DNA of 64,000 nt. Source: Eledone cirrhosa. Taxonomy: Eukaryota. Within the stretch, counting starts at the first letter, position 1. Each line of letters starts with the position of its first letter. The position numbers and the translations under genes are program-made. The notes under the pieces are model-generated. The model saw only the letters and a list, made by a program, of their open reading frames with translations. It had not been told where the DNA came from and did not search any database. The stretch is from the NCBI GenBank assembly GCA_964016885.1, contig OZ024740.1, positions 221,154,001 to 221,218,000 of the forward strand, given 5' to 3'. Below are positions 35,343 to 49,200 of the stretch, piece after piece.

Positions 35343-35603
35343 GACTGTGCAAGTAGTATGGTGTTAATTATACCTTTTCTGGTGGTAGGAGAGGGTGGAG
35401 ATTGGAATGGGTGGAGGTCATTGGTTAAAGAAAGGGGAATTCTTTAAAAGCTATTCTTTAAATCCATCAACCAATGACCTCCACCCATCCCAATCACCAC
35501 CCTCTCCTACTACCAGAAAAGGTATAAATACCACCATACTACTTGGACAGTCGGCTTCCTAATGATTTCTGCCGAATGAAACAGTTCTAGTCCTGTAGAA
35601 GTC

Positions 35604-40439: not shown

Positions 40440-40510
40440 TTGTCCTCATCAGTGGCCTTCCAACCGTCGTAGGCATTTCGTCGCATTAAAGGCCATGTAC
40501 CTCAGGTTGG
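40440..40510 (-). ncRNA. Candidate pseudoknotted, kink-turn-containing hammerhead variant, family 2
   Basis: CCAAC-CUGA-GGUA-CA-UGGCCUU-UAAUGCGAC-GAAA-UGCC-UAC-GA-CG-GUUGG-AAGGCCA-CUGAUGA; all helices covary with the 43 kb copy. Confidence 0.5.
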
Positions 40511-40684
40511 TGCGAGCAACGGCTAAAAAAAGTCGTTGGGACACGTAAATAAGGGGGACGCTAGGGTAAACAAACAAAATGGTATATATATAACGAAGGA
40601 AATGTGGTAAGGAACCAGGTGGACCATAACGCACCAAAGTACTCAATACTTAGGGTAGTAGAGTGGGTAATAGGAACCAGTAAG

Positions 40685-40778
40685 ACCCCGACGGCTGGGC
40701 TCAAGCCGTTTCGACGGCTAATTCTGGACTGAATGAAAATTTATCCTGGTATTTAAATAGCCGAGCTTCTCAAGGGGT
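40685..40778 (-). ncRNA. Type I hammerhead with a U3-A8 core (inverted twin at 41129-41222 on +)
   Basis: ACCCC-UUGAGAA-GCU CGGCUA..UAGCCG UC-GAAA-CGGCU UGAGCCC AGCCG-UC-GGGGU. Confidence 0.7.
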
Positions 40779-41267
40779 AATTCCATATATGGTCAAAGTG
40801 ATTGTCAAAAGTTAGTAGTAATTCTGTGATGGCAAATTAGTAGGGGAGATGGTGGCTAAACCTGCCAGTAGGAGAAAAAGGGGAGGGGGTGGAGTAGACC
40901 CAATCATGCGTTGGTAGTGCCGGCTACAGCTGGGCATGAGGTCAAAGAAGATACTGGGAGAGGGAGGGGGAGGAATTCGAAACGGTAGGTAGAACAATTA
41001 GGGGTAAAACTACTCTACCCCCTCCCCTTTTTCTCCTACTGGCAGGTTTAGCCACCATCTCCCCTACTAATTTGCCATCACAGAATTACTACTAACTTTT
41101 GACAATCACTTTGACCATATATGGAATTAACCCTTGAGAAGCTCGGCTATTTAAATACCAGGATAAATTTTCATTTAGTCCAGAATTAGCCGTCGAAACG
41201 GCTTGAGCTCAGCCGTCGGGGTCTTACTGGTTCCTATATATATATATATATACACATACATATACAT

Positions 41268-42826: not shown

Positions 42827-42941
42827 AGGAGGACATGATATGAAGGCTAAAAAACACTTGTGGATAGTGCAGTTTTAAATCAACATGTTGATTTAAAACT
42901 GCACTATCCACAAGTGTTTTTTAGCCTTCATATCATGTCCT

Positions 42942-42944
<3 letters not shown>
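42827..42944. repeat. Perfect 118-bp palindrome with no spacer
   Basis: 59-bp arms checked base by base, centred on CAACA|TGTTG. Confidence 0.95.
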
Positions 42945-42987
<43 letters not shown>

Positions 42988-43004
42988 TTACGGGCGAAAG
43001 AGGG

Positions 43005-43078
43005 TAATATCCATCGTCAGTTGTCTGCTAGGAATCATAGCTATTTCTTCGCGTTAGAGACAAGATACCTCAGCCTAG
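43005..43078 (-). ncRNA. Candidate pseudoknotted, kink-turn-containing hammerhead variant, family 1 (partial duplicate at ~43570-43634)
   Basis: CUAGG-CUGA-GGUA-UC-UUGUCU-CUAACGCGAA-GAAA-UA(G/C)C-UAU-GA-UU-CCUAG-C-AGACAA-CUGACGA. Confidence 0.5.
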
Positions 43079-43128
43079 GGTGAACAATAACTAAAATAAG
43101 TTATTGGGATAAAAAAAAGGGGGGGGGG

Positions 43129-44032
43129 ATGTAAACAAACACGAAGGGTGAAGCAACGTAAATAGAGTAAAAATAGGAAACATATCAAGTCAACAATTCA
43201 TTTCGAACGTAAGATCTGGCGAGTTTGACGTCTTCACTGTAGCCGTGTTAGCGAGAGAAAAGACTGCTTACATTGGCGGACGAGGGAGGAAGCGAGCTAG
43301 CGGAGAGAGGGTGACTAGCAGAGAGGGACGGAGTGAAAGTAAGAGAAAGCGAGAAAGAGATAGCTATAGTGGCAGGCTAGCCGACAGAAGGTGACTGACT
43401 GGCAGAGGAGGTGAGCGAAAGTAAGAGAGAGAAGGAGAGAGAAGGGGGAGAGATGGGATAGCAACAAAGGGAGAGAAAAGAGACTGGTCACAGCGGAGAT
43501 GGAAGCTTATGTGAATGAAATGGCGAGCTGTGTGGTTGCATTTAAGTATAATGAAAAATAAAAGTTACGGATAATATCCGACGTCAGTTTTCTGCTAGGA
43601 ATCATAGGTATTTCTTCACGTTAGAGACAAGATGCAACCACACAGCGCGCCATTTTATTCATATAAGCTTCCTTCTCTGCTGTGATCAGTCTCTTTTCTC
43701 TCTCCTTGTTGCTATCCTCTCTCTCTCCCTCTTCTCCCTCTTACTTTCGCTCATCCCCTCTACTAGTCACCTTCTCTCGGCTAGCCAGCCACTATAGCTA
43801 TCTATTTCTCGCTTCTTCTTACTTTCACTCCGTCCCTCTCTGCTAGTCACCCTCTCTCCGCTAGCTCGCTTCCTCCCTCGTCCGCCATTGTAAGCAGTCT
43901 TTTCTCTCGCTAACACGGCTACAGTGAAGACGGCAAACTCGCCAGATCTTACGTTCGAAATGAGTTGTTGACTTGATATTTTTCCTATTTTTCCTCTATA
44001 AACGTTGCTTCACCCTTCGTGTTTGTTTACAT
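43129..44032. repeat. ~400-bp imperfect inverted repeat (43129-43541 / 43632-44032)
   Basis: Purine-rich left arm is the reverse complement of the pyrimidine-rich right arm. Confidence 0.9.
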
Positions 44033-44102
44033 TTTTTTCTTCAGGTAAAGGAAATAAATAAATATTCTTAAAAAGGCCCGAGTTGCATTTTCGATTTCTT
44101 TT

Positions 44103-44184
<82 letters not shown>

Positions 44185-44321
44185 AGTACAGAATTAGCCG
44201 TCGAAACGGCTTGAGCTCAGCCGTCGGGGTCTTACTTACTCCTATTACCCACTCTACTACCCTAAGTATTGAGTACTTTGGTGCGTTATGGTCCACCTGG
44301 TTCCTTACCACTTTCCCCTCG

Positions 44322-44407
<86 letters not shown>

Positions 44408-44411
<4 letters not shown>

Positions 44412-46212
44412 CGTTTCTGAATTTGTTTAGCAAGATTCTTTATCTGAAAACGTGTGTTGAAACCGATATTGTTATACTTGGGGGGGGTCATGTTGCCAAT
44501 AAGAAACACACGCACCAGTTGCTTTAACTTCAATTTATTATAAATTAAATTCATAAATTTAGGAATTTATAAATTTCCGGTTGGTTGGTTGATTCCACAA
44601 CCAGACGATTGTTCATATATTGTCAAAGTTCTTTCGTCACACATTCTGTGACCTCTTCAGTGACTGGGGATTCTTTTCTTTGTTTTTTGTGCCTCTCCTT
44701 TGTTCTGTCCTACACCATATTGTTTTTGTGTGTGTGTTGTGTGCTTAGTTTTCGCATGTGTTACATCCGGGTGTCTGTGTGTTTATATTTATTTATTTAT
44801 TTGTTTATTTACATGTTACTGGTTGGTTGTTTGTTCTATGTGTGTGTGTGTTTTCATTTTGTCCTTAATTGTAAGTTGTGATGTTGCTATTCCATTCATG
44901 CTTTCTATTTAATTTGGTTGGAGTTCATTTATGTTTATTGCCTCTGTGATTTGTCTAAACATTTGCGTCTTTTCTGTGTGTAGATTCTATTTTTATTTCT
45001 ATGTTCTTTAATTTACCCTTATGTTCTATTTTAGCATGTTGGTGGAGTACAGATGATTCTTTACTATCTTGAAGCTCTCGCCAGTGTTCATTTATCCGTT
45101 CCCCTATACTACGAGCTGTCTCACTTATGTACACAATATTCTTATCTCTACATTGTCCTTCAGTATATCTTATGCTATATACTACATTTATAGTTTTACA
45201 GTTAATATGGGGGCTTAGTTTAGAGATTATACATTTCTTATCTATACAGGGAGGTCTTTGAAAAGGGTATGTATTGCTAATAAGTGTTTTTATGGAGGTA
45301 CCTGGTCTTTCTACTATCTTAATATTGAGTTTATGTTTATCTAGGGCCCTTCTGAATTTGTAAGCTAATTCACCTCTAGGGGTTGTATTGATGAACATTA
45401 CACTCTGGTATTTATTGCTATCATACCATGAGTTTATTCTATTAACCTTATTCCTAGTTCTTTCTATTCTATTCCAAAATGTGCTCCTATACAAGGGGCA
45501 GGTCCCATTTGTATCATTATTTACCATTTTTTCCCATTTGGTTCTGGCTCCTCTATATACTCTGATTTTATCTCTCTGATTGTAACCAGCGAACTGCATA
45601 CGGTGGATGAAGTGTTGTATGTGTCTCTCTAGTTCTTTGGGGTTGCACATGCGGGACACGTTTCTCATCACCCGTACCAAATCCGCAATCAGTATGTTGA
45701 TTTTGGTGTGGTCCGAGACAGCTGAGTTTCGGTGGATCAGATATTTAGAAGTCATGGGTTTGGCATAATGGGAATGGAGGATATGTTTTTTGTTATTGAT
45801 AGTATCTAACCAGAGCTCTGTGTCTAGTACAGATAATCGATGGTTGGGGTGTTTGCTTGGGTAGTCTATAGTAACTCTAATACTCTGGTGGATGGAGTTA
45901 GCTATTTGCTATTTGCTATTTGCTATTTGCGCAAACTAATCACACAACACACACAAAAACAAGATGGCGTAGGACAGAACAAAGGAGAGGCACAAAAACA
46001 AAGAAAAGAATCTCCAGTCACTGAAGAGGTCACAGAATGTGTGACGAAAGAACTTTGACAATATATGAACAATCGTCTGGTTGTGGAACCAACCAACCAA
46101 CCGGAAATTTATAAATTCCTAAATTTATAAATTTAATTTATAATAAATTGGAGTGAAAGCAACTGGTGCGTGTGTTTCTTATTGGCAACATGACTCTCCC
46201 AAAGTATAACAA
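44408..46212 (-). mobile_element. Penelope-like element, 5'-truncated, with an inverted pseudo-LTR (45930-46212)
   Basis: ORF 44955-45755 encodes the RT thumb, a Cys-rich linker and a GIY-YIG EN (VVYSIRY..VYISETARSIGERINEH..HAKIEH); inserted in (TA)n. Confidence 0.9.
46017..46059 (+). ncRNA. PLE pseudo-LTR minimal hammerhead (copies at 44622-44664, 56679-56721 and 60512-60554 on minus; diverged 59586-59628 and 59708-59750)
   Basis: GUCA-CUGAAGA-G GUCACA GAAUG UGUGAC-GAAA-GAAC-UU-UGAC. Confidence 0.85.
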
Positions 46213-49200
46213 TATATATATATACATATATAGACATTCAGGTAATAAAATATATTTTATTATATATATTTCAATATATGCCAAAAGGAAATGGAAACAA
46301 CAGAGCAAACAAAATGAAGAAACATACTAGTTTAACGCTTGATATAGTAGGAAAAGAGTCTGTATGTTTCGGACACTAGTCCTTCACCAGAAGATAGAAG
46401 GAGAAATAAAAGATGAATTAAAAAGATAAAGAGTTAGAAACGGCTGAAACGGAAAAAGAAATTAATGAAATACAACCACACACAAGTGAAAGAAGAATAA
46501 TACCTGATTCATTGTAAATTCACCATGAATGGTTAAAGAGTTCGCTTCACAAACATTAGGTTACCTCTCATATTTGCGGAGTGGATAACATGAAATACCA
46601 GTCAGATACTGGGCCTGATTTAATCGACTAACCTCTAACCTCAAACTTCTGAGCTTGTGCCTATGTTAGTAACAATTCAGGAAAACTAAGTTAAACATTA
46701 TTTAAAAGTGTCAACATTTCCAAAAGCGCTAACCTACTGAGAAACATAATGTCTTTGGTTCGATGTGGAAAGTCAATCAGAAGAACGTGCTCAATCCTCC
46801 AGACCGAACCTAATCAAACTATAAAGTATAGTTAATACAAAGTATTGTGAGAAATGTAATAAAAGACCAATAAGTTTGAAAAAGCCGTTGAAATATACTG
46901 GGCAAAACCTTACTTTATTTTGTTTTATTTGTCATCATTTGCCTTTCGTATTTTTCTACCGCATTGTACCGGCCTTTTGAAACTAATCGGTATTTTATTA
47001 CAATTAAACTATGTTTCCAATGGGTCTCTGGTCGTAGTAGGATTAAGAGCAACGTCCTTTAACCTTCTTTATACTGTTTGGGAATGTTATGGATACAATT
47101 ACAATGCTGTTGTTCCTAATCAAAAAGAAATCAACATCCCATTTATCTATGTAGATAAATAGACCCAAATGATTAATGCTTCCTACTCAAAATTGTCCAG
47201 AATTAGCTGATTAATCTCGGATCACCGATCTCATATTTTATATTTGGTGCTCATATTTTAACATCTAAATCAAACAAGCTAATCATACGACATGTATATA
47301 AATTAGCCACTGTTGTTTTAACAACAGTACATGACCGCATCTTTATCGTTCAACTCAACAAATGATCATATGGAAATTGTTTCAAAGAACCAACAACACA
47401 CACACACACGTTCTTTCTCTCTCTCGCACACAAATTCCCCCCCCCCCCCACACACAAAACAAACAAACGCACACAGAGATGCACGCACACAAGCAGAAAA
47501 GTCATACAAACATACATACGTACATAAATACATATATACATACATATGATATTCTCTTTAATATTCGCCAATCAGATTATTGTCTATGTATAACAGCTTG
47601 TCGAAGTAAAATTGAAATGACATTCCCGCCAATATGTCTCTTTTACGCCCAACATCAGATACAATCTATATTAAGACAAAATTCATTTCAAATTAGCGTG
47701 TTCTATTCTGAACTATTGATTTATTTTGACTAAACACAATGTCTAATGTGTATACTAGGAGGGAGAAAAGGGGTGTTATATACTTTATACTTTACTCAAG
47801 AGCACTAGTTCTCATTGTTAAACCCCAGGCAAAACCTGACCTGTCAAACATTATAATAATTGATGCTCTGTTTATAGCTATGAAGTTGTTTTTGTAAATA
47901 CATTTCATATAAGAACATATTCTCCAATGTGTTAGAATTGGCTGTTGTGTTTAATTATACGAAAAAACGTACAGAGGTCTCCATTTATGGCATGCTATTT
48001 CTTCAAGATCTATCCATACTTGGCTCACTTCAGCTAGTCTCATATATTATAGAGCGCCTACTAGATTCATATCTTAAATTCTAATTTACTTTCTAAAGTT
48101 CAACGCCAATTTGTTTATGGAAGGAGTAAAGCTGACTGAATCGTTTTAGACTTATTGAGGTCTATCGATTGTGGAAGGGTGAAAAGCAAAATGAAATCCC
48201 AAGGAAGATTTTAATTCGAATAAGAGGGATGAAAAATAAACAAATCAATACACTTAGACTGGTGCTTTACTGTCTCGACAATCTTCTGAAATAATAATAT
48301 ATGAAATAGAGATCCCCTACCATAATAACCATTATTCGTTTCTAGATAATTCACAAATTGCTCAGTGTAGTAATGTCTATACATTTTCATACTTCTTAGT
48401 CAACACTGAAACTGTGCAAGTGAATATTTATCTAAATAGAAAGTACTGTTGATTTTAGCTCTAGTAACTTTCTGCTTACAGTCAATATTACAAATGCTGA
48501 TAAAACCAAGTCACGGTTGATCTTCAAATAGCACATTTTATTCTACTAAATTTCTCTTGTAATAGCAAATACTATGATAGATGATTTATTTGAAAAAATA
48601 ATATAACATTTTCTAAAGAAATTGAACATAAACAACAGTATGTATTTCTTGTATTAATTGAATATTTTCCAATATCAAAATGTTCTCTTCATCACATTAT
48701 ATAAATAACAAAGCGAATACGTTGCTTTTTTTTTGTTTCCACATTTCCGTAACTGTTATTGCTTTTGTTGTTGTAGTTAGTACTTTTGTTTTACGTTAGT
48801 TTCTTCACCAGCCTTTATATAACAAGCGAAAAAGTGTGTCTGTATTCAAACAACGTTGTCATTTTTCAACGTATCTACTTAAAGCTTGCATTCATACTTA
48901 TCCCTCAATAATCCATGAACCAAAAACTTTCGACTACCAACGCCGCTGGAGTATTAAGTGCAAATTATAGAAAAGTGGTGTAAAAAGATTGTAAGTTCTA
49001 ATGGAGTGGCATTGGGATAATTTGGAAGGAATAAAATATCCGTTCTGAAATAGAACAAAAGTAAGATGTTTTTGTGATATTTTTGTTCCAAAATAGAACT
49101 GTTATCTTTCTCTTACAATTACTAAATTCTTTATTTCACATTGACTCCCCCCCCTCTCTCTCTCTCTCTCGTTATGTCTGATCTCACCCATTCTTTCTTT

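What the first reader, a model, noticed from the sequence alone, without database searches (positions are those of the whole stretch)
42985..43080. Candidate re-wired hammerhead: core in non-canonical order, closed by a pseudoknot and a box C/D-type kink-turn
Seen on the minus strand: CUAGG-CUGA-GGUA-UC-UUGUCU-CUAACGCGAA-GAAA-UA(G/C)C-UAU-GA-UU-CCUAG-C-AGACAA-CUGACGA-U. The partial duplicate at ~43570-43634 has UACC, which pairs perfectly with GGUA. All hammerhead core parts are present, but in the order stem III-UH, stem I 5', GAAA-stem III', stem I 3'-CUGAYGA. That order is not a circular permutation of types I, II or III: stem I (UUGUCU/AGACAA) crosses stem III as a pseudoknot. Distal stem III reads as a standard kink-turn (C-stem GGUA/UACC, 3-nt bulge UAU, tandem GA/AG, D-box-like CUGA, NC-stem CUAGG/CCUAG). 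Established: k-turns make a sharp bend and bind L7Ae/15.5K proteins, and hammerhead stems I and II lie side by side. Inference: the k-turn folds the chain back so it can re-enter as stem I, giving a new ribozyme topology that is possibly protein-gated and invisible to standard HHR descriptors. Weak point: stem II is only one clear pair (U10.1-A11.1) plus a distal UUA/UAA.
Basis: partly seen in the sequence, partly recalled or inferred. Interest (0 to 1): 0.88.

Follow-up and report, generated by a model that had tools for sequence, protein, structure and literature searches.

The report
Rewired hammerhead ribozyme in Naiad-type repeats
A short jumping repeat with thousands of copies in this animal genome carries all the parts of a hammerhead self-cutting RNA in a scrambled order, held by stems that change in step between repeat families; it likely cuts its own RNA, and the same wiring appears in Naiad retrotransposons that were reported to lack a normal hammerhead.

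Summary
The motif is one damaged copy of a hammerhead-core fold in non-coding tandem repeats (about 500-700 nt) inserted in (TA)n. Two loose descriptors match 10,738 sites against 29 for reversed controls. Across 18 family representatives, 17 of 17 same-branch double changes restore pairs (null 0.6).

The core order is not new: it is type SGC (Eckert 2023), known only from metatranscriptomes.

By eye, at least 15 of 54 published Naiad consensi, said to lack canonical hammerheads, end in this order (9) or its CSG relative (6).

In the window's family, 10 of 21 upstream motif copies begin within 8 nt of the predicted cut (7% expected); families A and G show 0 of 25. Cleavage and 15.5K gating are untested, and no intact Naiad was found here. 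Three earlier scan notes on other DNA reached the same reading.

The parts
43009..43110 (-). Whole predicted ribozyme fold (type-SGC core, kink-turn, four-way junction); this copy has two lesions
43107..43110 (-). P1 5' strand (RUCC), pairs with GGAY at 43012-43009; closes the whole fold
   Evidence: A-U/G-C swap at the outer pair in 6 vs 11 of 19 rows
43085..43106 (-). P2 hairpin, 8 bp with a U-rich loop
   Evidence: 3 pairs with double change; in the minimum-energy fold of 6 of 7 sequences
43080..43083 (-). P3 5' strand (UCGC in the family, UCAC here); pairs with GCGA at 43052-43049 and supplies distal stem II
   Evidence: C-G to U-A in 3 of 19 rows, 98.7% of cells paired; one tree event
43070..43078 (-). 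Kink-turn NC-stem 5' strand and D-box-like CUGA
   Evidence: 5 of 6 NC pairs with double change; 4n.4b is C-G, G-C or U-A
43064..43069 (-). Stem III 5' strand and UH; predicted scissile bond between 43064 and 43063
   Evidence: analogy with type SGC (PMC10085705); 5' ends of copies cluster here
43058..43063 (-). Stem I 5' strand (pseudoknot), pairs with 43026-43021
   Evidence: 5 of 6 pairs with double change
43040..43057 (-). YUAAH linker, P3 3' strand, N11.1, GAAA and stem III 3' strand (G at 43041 breaks one pair)
43028..43039 (-). Kink-turn bulged strand: 3-nt bulge, GA, NC-stem 3' strand
43013..43026 (-). Stem I 3' strand, CUGACGA core and U10.1, the single stem II core pair with A11.1 at 43048
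   Evidence: 11.1-10.1 is A-U 7, U-G 5, U-A 4, C-G 1, unpaired 2 of 19 rows
43064..43630 (-). One 567-nt non-coding, pyrimidine-rich repeat unit, from one predicted cut site to the next
   Evidence: longest stop-free frame 80 codons; tandem units of 445-745 nt in related loci
43569..43633 (-). Upstream partial motif starting at the AUC triplet; lacks the stem III 5' strand; core reads CUGACGU
43632..44032 (+). Inverted copy of most of the unit, the PLE-type inverted 5' segment
   Evidence: inverted arms of 268 nt (96%) and 105 nt (88%)
42944..42985 (.). (TA)n at the 3' end, likely the insertion target
   Evidence: 176 of 240 motif copies run into (TA)n 55-200 nt after the site
44106..44182 (.). 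(TA)n beyond the inverted segment
40440..40547 (-). Copy of the same fold from a sister family; U16.1 is changed to C, so likely inactive
   Evidence: 106.6 bits with model R1

Best explanation
The motif is a hammerhead catalytic core in the non-circular S-G-C order, with covarying helices, in a non-coding tandem repeat likely derived from the tail of a Naiad Penelope-like element, and it likely cleaves its own RNA after AUH. Shown from sequence: seven helices covary, the units are tandem, sit in (TA)n and carry inverted 5' segments. Inferred fold: stem III is bent back by a kink-turn so the chain can reach the far end of stem I. Stem II is one core pair stacked on a helix whose other strand comes from the 5' flank. 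That junction also holds hairpin P2 and closing helix P1, and P3 ties stems I and II together in place of the usual loop-loop contact. Inferred life cycle: cleavage is slow or partial and sets the 5' end of some template RNAs. A Penelope-like RT/endonuclease, working in trans, primes 60-130 nt past an uncut last motif and inserts 1-1.2 units, or longer arrays, into (TA)n. The window's own copies are probably impaired fossils.
For: Descriptor matches 6,060 vs 10 and 4,678 vs 19. 34 pairs, 95.5% of cells paired, 18 pairs with double change, every helix with at least one, 0 of 500 shuffles; slid controls 28-44%. 17 of 17 same-branch double changes restore a pair, null mean 0.58, max 4 of 5000. 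P1, P2, P3 and 10.1-11.1 were not constrained by the search patterns. Units are only 63-75% alike outside the motif. Family W 5' ends: 10 of 21 within +8..-6 of the cut vs 7% expected, p 6e-7; 3 of 91 for 3'-terminal copies. Type-SGC RNAs cleave at 0.007-0.19 per min (PMC10085705). Same wiring by eye in 9 Naiad consensi, with the k-turn in two octopus ones, and in metagenome loci L305/L308. Uncut RNA was the main substrate of one PLE in vitro (PMC11167929).
Against: No cleavage assay. Core invariance in the alignment is circular, because copies were found with a pattern fixing it. Stem III shows no same-branch double change, and P1, P3 and the stem II pair rest on one tree event each. Families A and G give 0 of 25 5' ends at the site; pooled 13 of 57. 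The 3'-terminal control is partly biased by how loci were chosen, and a promoter start at the same place would mimic the signal. 11.1-10.1 is rarely the preferred G10.1-C11.1. Only 15 of 76 family-W copies keep all nine elements. Naiads in this genome appear only as decayed remnants, none with the motif attached at its 3' end. A complete bivalve-type Naiad has no core in its tail.
Confidence: 0.76

Rival explanations
1. The fold is real, but it works mainly as a recognition or priming signal for the reverse transcriptase, and cleavage is negligible.
For: Arrays of 10 or more units persist. A and G show no 5'-end excess. Templates must pass an uncut 3' motif. Hammerhead mutants did not affect insertion by an Anolis PLE in vitro (PMC11167929).
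Against: The complete core and UH are present in all families and in distant Naiad consensi with different flanks. 5' ends cluster at the predicted bond in W (10 of 21) and C (2 of 5).
Confidence: 0.14
2. The active form is an ordinary-order hammerhead assembled between neighbouring units or two RNA molecules, and the S-G-C order is incidental.
For: Units are tandem. Some PLE hammerheads cleave as dimers (title cited in PMC10085705; paper not read).
Against: No C-block/GAAA combination in an 800-nt stretch spanning two motifs gives more than 1 bp of direct stem II. Naiad consensi carry the order once, at the tail. All seven helices close within about 100 nt.
Confidence: 0.05
3. It is a box C/D-like protein-binding module (snoRNA mimic), not a ribozyme.
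For: Family A reads CUGA opposite AUGAUG with U.U and G-C, the box C/D pattern (PMC5689011).
Against: No snoRNA family reaches its threshold. CUGA becomes GUGA or UUGA with compensation in other families. Coral-type and metagenome relatives keep the core but not the k-turn.
Confidence: 0.03

Closest known systems
Type-SGC hammerhead ribozymes (HRIMA-1 and variants; Eckert et al. 2023, PMC10085705)
   Same: Order of blocks S-G-C; full core; stem I 5' strand linked by a short linker to the strand before GAAA; predicted cut after UH.
   Different: Found there only in metatranscriptomes, here in an animal genome. There stem II pairs with the strand after CUGAUGA (G-C plus 2 or more bp) and a separate I-II helix exists. 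Here that strand gives one pair or none, the rest comes from the 5' flank, and P1, P2 and a kink-turn are added ('kink' 0 times in that main text; its alignments not seen).
Naiad Penelope-like elements (Craig et al. 2021, PMC8557442)
   Same: (TA)n targets, tandem and inverted insertions. Octopus Naiad consensi end in the same fold with the k-turn.
   Different: These repeats are non-coding. The authors report no canonical hammerhead (only 'HHR_core' and 'HHR_half_core' marks). No intact Naiad was found in this genome.
Metazoan non-LTR retrozymes (PMC7229834; bioRxiv 10.64898/2026.07.22.740005)
   Same: Non-coding tandem units with one hammerhead each, proposed to be PLE-derived and moved in trans.
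   Different: Those carry canonical type I hammerheads and were shown to give circular RNA. Here the order is non-circular, units are 445-745 nt, and circular RNA was not tested.
Box C/D and U4-type standard kink-turns (PMC4382518, PMC5689011)
   Same: 3-nt bulge, tandem G.A/A.G, C-G at -1; U.U at 3b.3n with G-C at 4b.4n in families A and D.
   Different: Sits on a ribozyme stem. L3, 3b and 4b.4n vary between families (U.C at 4b.4n in the window's family; 3b is C in B and C).

Membership tests
Hammerhead ribozyme | Core CUGANGA, GAAA and UH at a junction of stems I, II, III | tested here: met
   unbiased family-W tally: UH 73, CUGANGA in register 53 of 76 copies
Hammerhead ribozyme | Stems I and III supported by covariation | tested here: met
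   5 of 6 and 2 of 5 pairs with double change; stem III has no same-branch event
Hammerhead ribozyme | Site-specific self-cleavage after UH | not testable with these tools
   indirect only: 5' ends 10 of 21 in W, 0 of 25 in A+G
Canonical types I, II, III | Circular order C-G-S | tested here: not met
   order is S-G-C; no Rfam hammerhead match
Type-SGC hammerhead | Block order S, G, C with pseudoknotted stems | tested here: met
Type-SGC hammerhead | Block C uninterrupted: stem II formed by the strand right after CUGAUGA (G-C plus 2 or more bp) | tested here: not met
   descriptor; here 1 bp, then strand exchange to P3 and P1
Type-SGC hammerhead | Helix between the 5' flank of stem I and the 3' flank of stem II | tested here: not met
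   those flanks pair elsewhere (NC stem, P1) with covariation
Standard kink-turn | C-stem, 3-nt bulge, G.A/A.G, NC-stem | tested here: met
   GA/GA in 66 of 76 family-W copies; NC covariation
Standard kink-turn | Kinked geometry and L7Ae/15.5K binding | not testable with these tools
   sequence rules only
Non-LTR retrozyme | Non-coding tandem units, one ribozyme each, dispersed | tested here: met
Non-LTR retrozyme | Type I hammerhead | tested here: not met
   order S-G-C
Non-LTR retrozyme | Linear and circular RNA monomers in vivo | not testable with these tools
   no RNA run available to lay
Naiad PLE | ORF with N-terminal GIY-YIG, CxC and RT upstream of the motif | tested here: not met
   unit is non-coding; Naiad remnants in G000 lack an attached motif
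Naiad PLE derivative | Shares the tail structure and (TA)n, tandem/inverted insertion style | tested here: inconclusive
   shared fold seen by eye in published consensi; no alignable sequence outside the motif was shown

The most novel reading that the evidence does not exclude
A natural hammerhead rewired beyond the six published block orders, with stem II completed by a fourth strand, whose box C/D-type kink-turn makes cleavage depend on the host 15.5K/Snu13 protein. It would be a host-protein-gated self-cleaving ribozyme that sets retroelement template ends, and rearranged hammerheads would be the typical ribozyme of much of the Naiad clade.
Probability: 0.25. Interest if true: 0.92.

Novelty: new variant of a known kind. 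Interest (0 to 1): 0.8.

Why it matters
Non-circularly permuted hammerheads were known only from environmental RNA and DNA with no host or biological role. This places the order in an animal genome at over ten thousand sites and ties it to a named retroelement clade. It offers a direct answer to a stated gap, that Naiads 'lack canonical hammerheads', since their tails show the SGC and CSG orders, which are circular permutations of each other. The strand-swapped stem II breaks the assumption used to count possible hammerhead permutations, so current descriptors miss a class. A kink-turn on a natural hammerhead would give a simple test of host-protein control. Each claim can be tested with a 105-nt transcript.

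Tried and rejected
Rfam: no hammerhead among the 150 of 248 window matches shown or the 16 local matches.

Energy folding cannot show the pseudoknots; z-scores -0.9 to -2.4 for 7 sequences, uninformative.

Autonomous partner: the abundant C-terminal-endonuclease PLE beside one copy was rejected as parent. 2 of 30 of its loci have the motif nearby and 29 of 30 carry their own canonical-order core. A Naiad peptide pattern gave 0 hits; a second gave 14, those that were Naiad-like all decayed. A Naiad RT query scored 144 of 6,691 candidates: the best 11 (30-38% identity) are short, 10 of them with stops, and none of the 30 loci fetched has the motif downstream. An octopus-Naiad-type motif pattern gave 27 hits against 212 for its control; a handful look like decayed copies.

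Public collections: strict pattern 0 in metagenomes. No Naiad relative in viral contigs.

Sequencing runs: no RNA holder listed. Laying three contig sets and one DNA run only confirmed family letters and tandem joints.

A sequence look-up in earlier scan notes found nothing.

Full report
Observation. The partial duplicate spans 43633-43569 and begins at the AUC triplet. No hammerhead family is among the 16 local Rfam matches. 0 of 3000 shuffles of a 628-nt unit give such a core with its stems.

Context. The window lies in a 3.0-Gb microsatellite-rich animal genome, probably an octopod: a neighbouring retroelement protein is 63% identical to an Octopus vulgaris protein. The motif ends a 567-nt non-coding unit that runs from one predicted cut site to the next. 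An inverted copy of most of the unit precedes it, and (TA)n flanks both sides. A DNA search gave 1,305 candidates; 40 were scored, giving 41 matches at 95-100%. A descriptor fixing only CUGA, UH, GAAA, GA and CUGANGA, and no pairing, matched 6,060 sites against 10 for its reversed control. The version starting with D matched 4,678 against 19. These counts reflect amplification, not independent origins. Units are tandem (445-745 nt; arrays of ten or more). 176 of 240 motif copies run into (TA)n 55-200 nt after the site, and the four family units compared are 63-75% alike outside the motif. This is the anatomy described for Penelope-like elements and retrozymes (PMC8557442, passages; PMC7229834, passages; bioRxiv 10.64898/2026.07.22.740005, parts 1-2 of 5).

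Structure. In 5' to 3' order: P1a, hairpin P2, P3a, NC stem, CUGA, stem III, UH, stem I, a YUAAH linker, P3b, N11.1, GAAA, stem III', 3-nt bulge, GA, NC', stem I', CUGAYGA, N10.1, P1b. From 127 distinct copies I aligned 13 cluster medoids, 5 of 20 singletons chosen by hand, and the window copy. Of 34 pairs, 95.5% of cells pair and 18 pairs have a change on both sides, at least one in each of 7 helices. 0 of 500 shuffles reach this, and slid partners pair 28-44%. On a tree of the 18 non-window rows, 17 of 17 same-branch double changes give a standard pair, against a null mean of 0.58 and a maximum of 4 in 5000. By helix: NC 7, stem I 4, P2 3, P1 1, P3 1, stem II pair 1, stem III 0. Core invariance in this alignment is circular. 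A less biased tally of 92 family-W copies anchored on the 24 nt after the cut found 76 with the 5' part: UH 73, k-turn GA/GA 66, stem III strand 64, stem I 60, CUGANGA in register 53, all nine elements 15. The window copy has a G.G in stem III and an A.C in P3, where public contigs and reads mostly show the pairing letters, so it is likely impaired. A sister-family copy at 40440-40547 has lost U16.1.

Stem II. Position 11.1 pairs with 10.1 as A-U, U-G, U-A or C-G in 17 of 19 rows. The chain after 10.1 then leaves to form P1, while the four bases before 11.1 pair with a strand from the 5' flank. Stem II therefore opens after one pair into a four-way junction. In two metagenome loci (L305, L308) and, by eye, in the octopus and Acropora Naiad consensi, even the first pair appears to come from the 5' strand. 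The published enumeration of six permutations assumes CUGAnGA stays joined to its stem II strand, and the published SGC descriptor needs CGAAA, CUGAUGA(U)G and two more pairs. This fold fails both.

Kink-turn. The bulge and tandem GA match the standard pattern, and the adjacent pair switches among G-C, C-G and A-U. Families A and D have U.U and G-C, a combination reported to fold poorly in Mg2+ alone and to need L7Ae/15.5K (PMC5689011, abstract and discussion; PMC4382518, passages). The window's family has U.C at 4b.4n, and families B and C have 3b = C, which favours ion-induced folding. The coral-type and metagenome relatives use bulged helices instead. The k-turn is thus one lineage's way to turn the chain; gating is possible but not implied. 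Helix lengths (5 bp out, about 8 bp back, 6 bp of stem I) fit a return path by rough count only; no 3D model was made.

Indirect sign of cleavage. For motif copies followed by 150 nt or more of unit, I mapped where similarity begins. In family W, 10 of 21 at risk begin within +8 to -6 of the predicted bond, against 7% from the background truncation rate of 0.53% per nt (p 6e-7); 3 of 91 3'-terminal copies do so. Family B gave 1 of 6, C 2 of 5, and A plus G 0 of 25; pooled 13 of 57, p 1.5e-4. A and G have an A-U-rich stem I and a G.U stem II pair and form long arrays, consistent with slower cutting, but they were also sampled through full-length motifs. A transcription start at the same place would give the same pattern. 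Most insertions cross an uncut 3' motif, in line with internal priming on unprocessed RNA by an Anolis PLE in vitro (PMC11167929, passages).

Naiad link. Craig et al. state that Naiads lack canonical hammerheads, though some have a core or half core. In search passages of their 54 consensi I parsed by eye 9 with the S-G-C order plus P3, and 6 with the C-S-G order. The 9 include Naiad_Obim and Naiad_Ovul with the k-turn and three Acropora elements; names were assigned from adjacent headers or file position. The 6 are mostly nematode elements by position. These are lower bounds: I saw 59 of 62, 15 of 23, 15 of 25 and 30 of 43 hits for four core variants, and line breaks hide others. The two squid consensi seen in part or whole and a complete bivalve-type Naiad (L452) show no clear motif. 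In this genome Naiads were found only as decayed remnants, whereas the repeat copies are up to 95-98% alike. PLEs with a C-terminal endonuclease are abundant with open frames up to 1,261 codons, carry their own canonical-order core (29 of 30 loci) and share the (TA)n sites. They are the likely movers in trans; this is inference.

Comparison and novelty. The core order is type SGC, validated in vitro, with no example from a known organism's genome (PMC10085705: main-text parts 1, 3, 4, 5 of 8, passages, supplement parts 1 and 8 of 42; its alignments not seen and they may bear on the k-turn and flank claims). Nine literature searches found no report of a permuted hammerhead in Penelope-like elements or of a k-turn in a natural hammerhead; most subscription journals are not covered. 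It works like a type-SGC hammerhead but fails two of its defining features, so I class it as a new variant. Three earlier scan notes, read after my own reading was written, agree; they are not independent evidence.

Verdict. Real, structurally well supported, catalysis likely (0.76) but untested. Interest 0.8.

Noticed in passing
window 44156-44687, 45994-46215 and 40583-41237: Pieces of other repeats with inverted arms. 44410-44500 matches the sequence after the ORF of the abundant PLE with a C-terminal GIY-YIG (L091; 39,147 candidates, open frames up to 1,261 aa), which carries a canonical-order hammerhead core in 29 of 30 loci.
   Followed up: partly
PMC8557442 supplement, File S5: Six Naiad consensi, mostly nematode by position, end in the other non-circular order, C-S-G, known before from two metagenome sequences.
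   Followed up: partly
L305, L308, L315 (metagenome contigs): Same four-way-junction S-G-C wiring with a 10-bp P1 and no standard k-turn; the carrying element is unknown because the records could not be extended.
   Followed up: partly
L451 and L452: Contigs filed as bacterial symbiont genomes contain an animal-type Naiad ORF (1,019 codons open in L452), probably host contamination; no hammerhead core in its tail.
   Followed up: partly
window 43053-43057: The linker keeps an invariant UAA in all 19 aligned rows with no pairing partner found; also present in Acropora Naiads. Possibly a tertiary contact.
   Followed up: no
window 42830-42943: Near-perfect short inverted repeat (about 55-nt arms) just beyond the 3' (TA)n; unrelated to the motif, perhaps a MITE or foldback.
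   Followed up: no
window 44033-44105: 73 nt between the inverted segment and (TA)n that do not belong to the unit; part of it also follows the 3' end in L024.
   Followed up: no
L481, L493: Another PLE family with open frames up to about 890-1,120 codons and no CUGANGA core seen in the roughly 1.5 kb downstream of the RT match in most loci.
   Followed up: no
window 35375-35520: Long near-perfect hairpin (about 55-bp arms) giving a below-threshold plant microRNA match; probably a foldback repeat.
   Followed up: no
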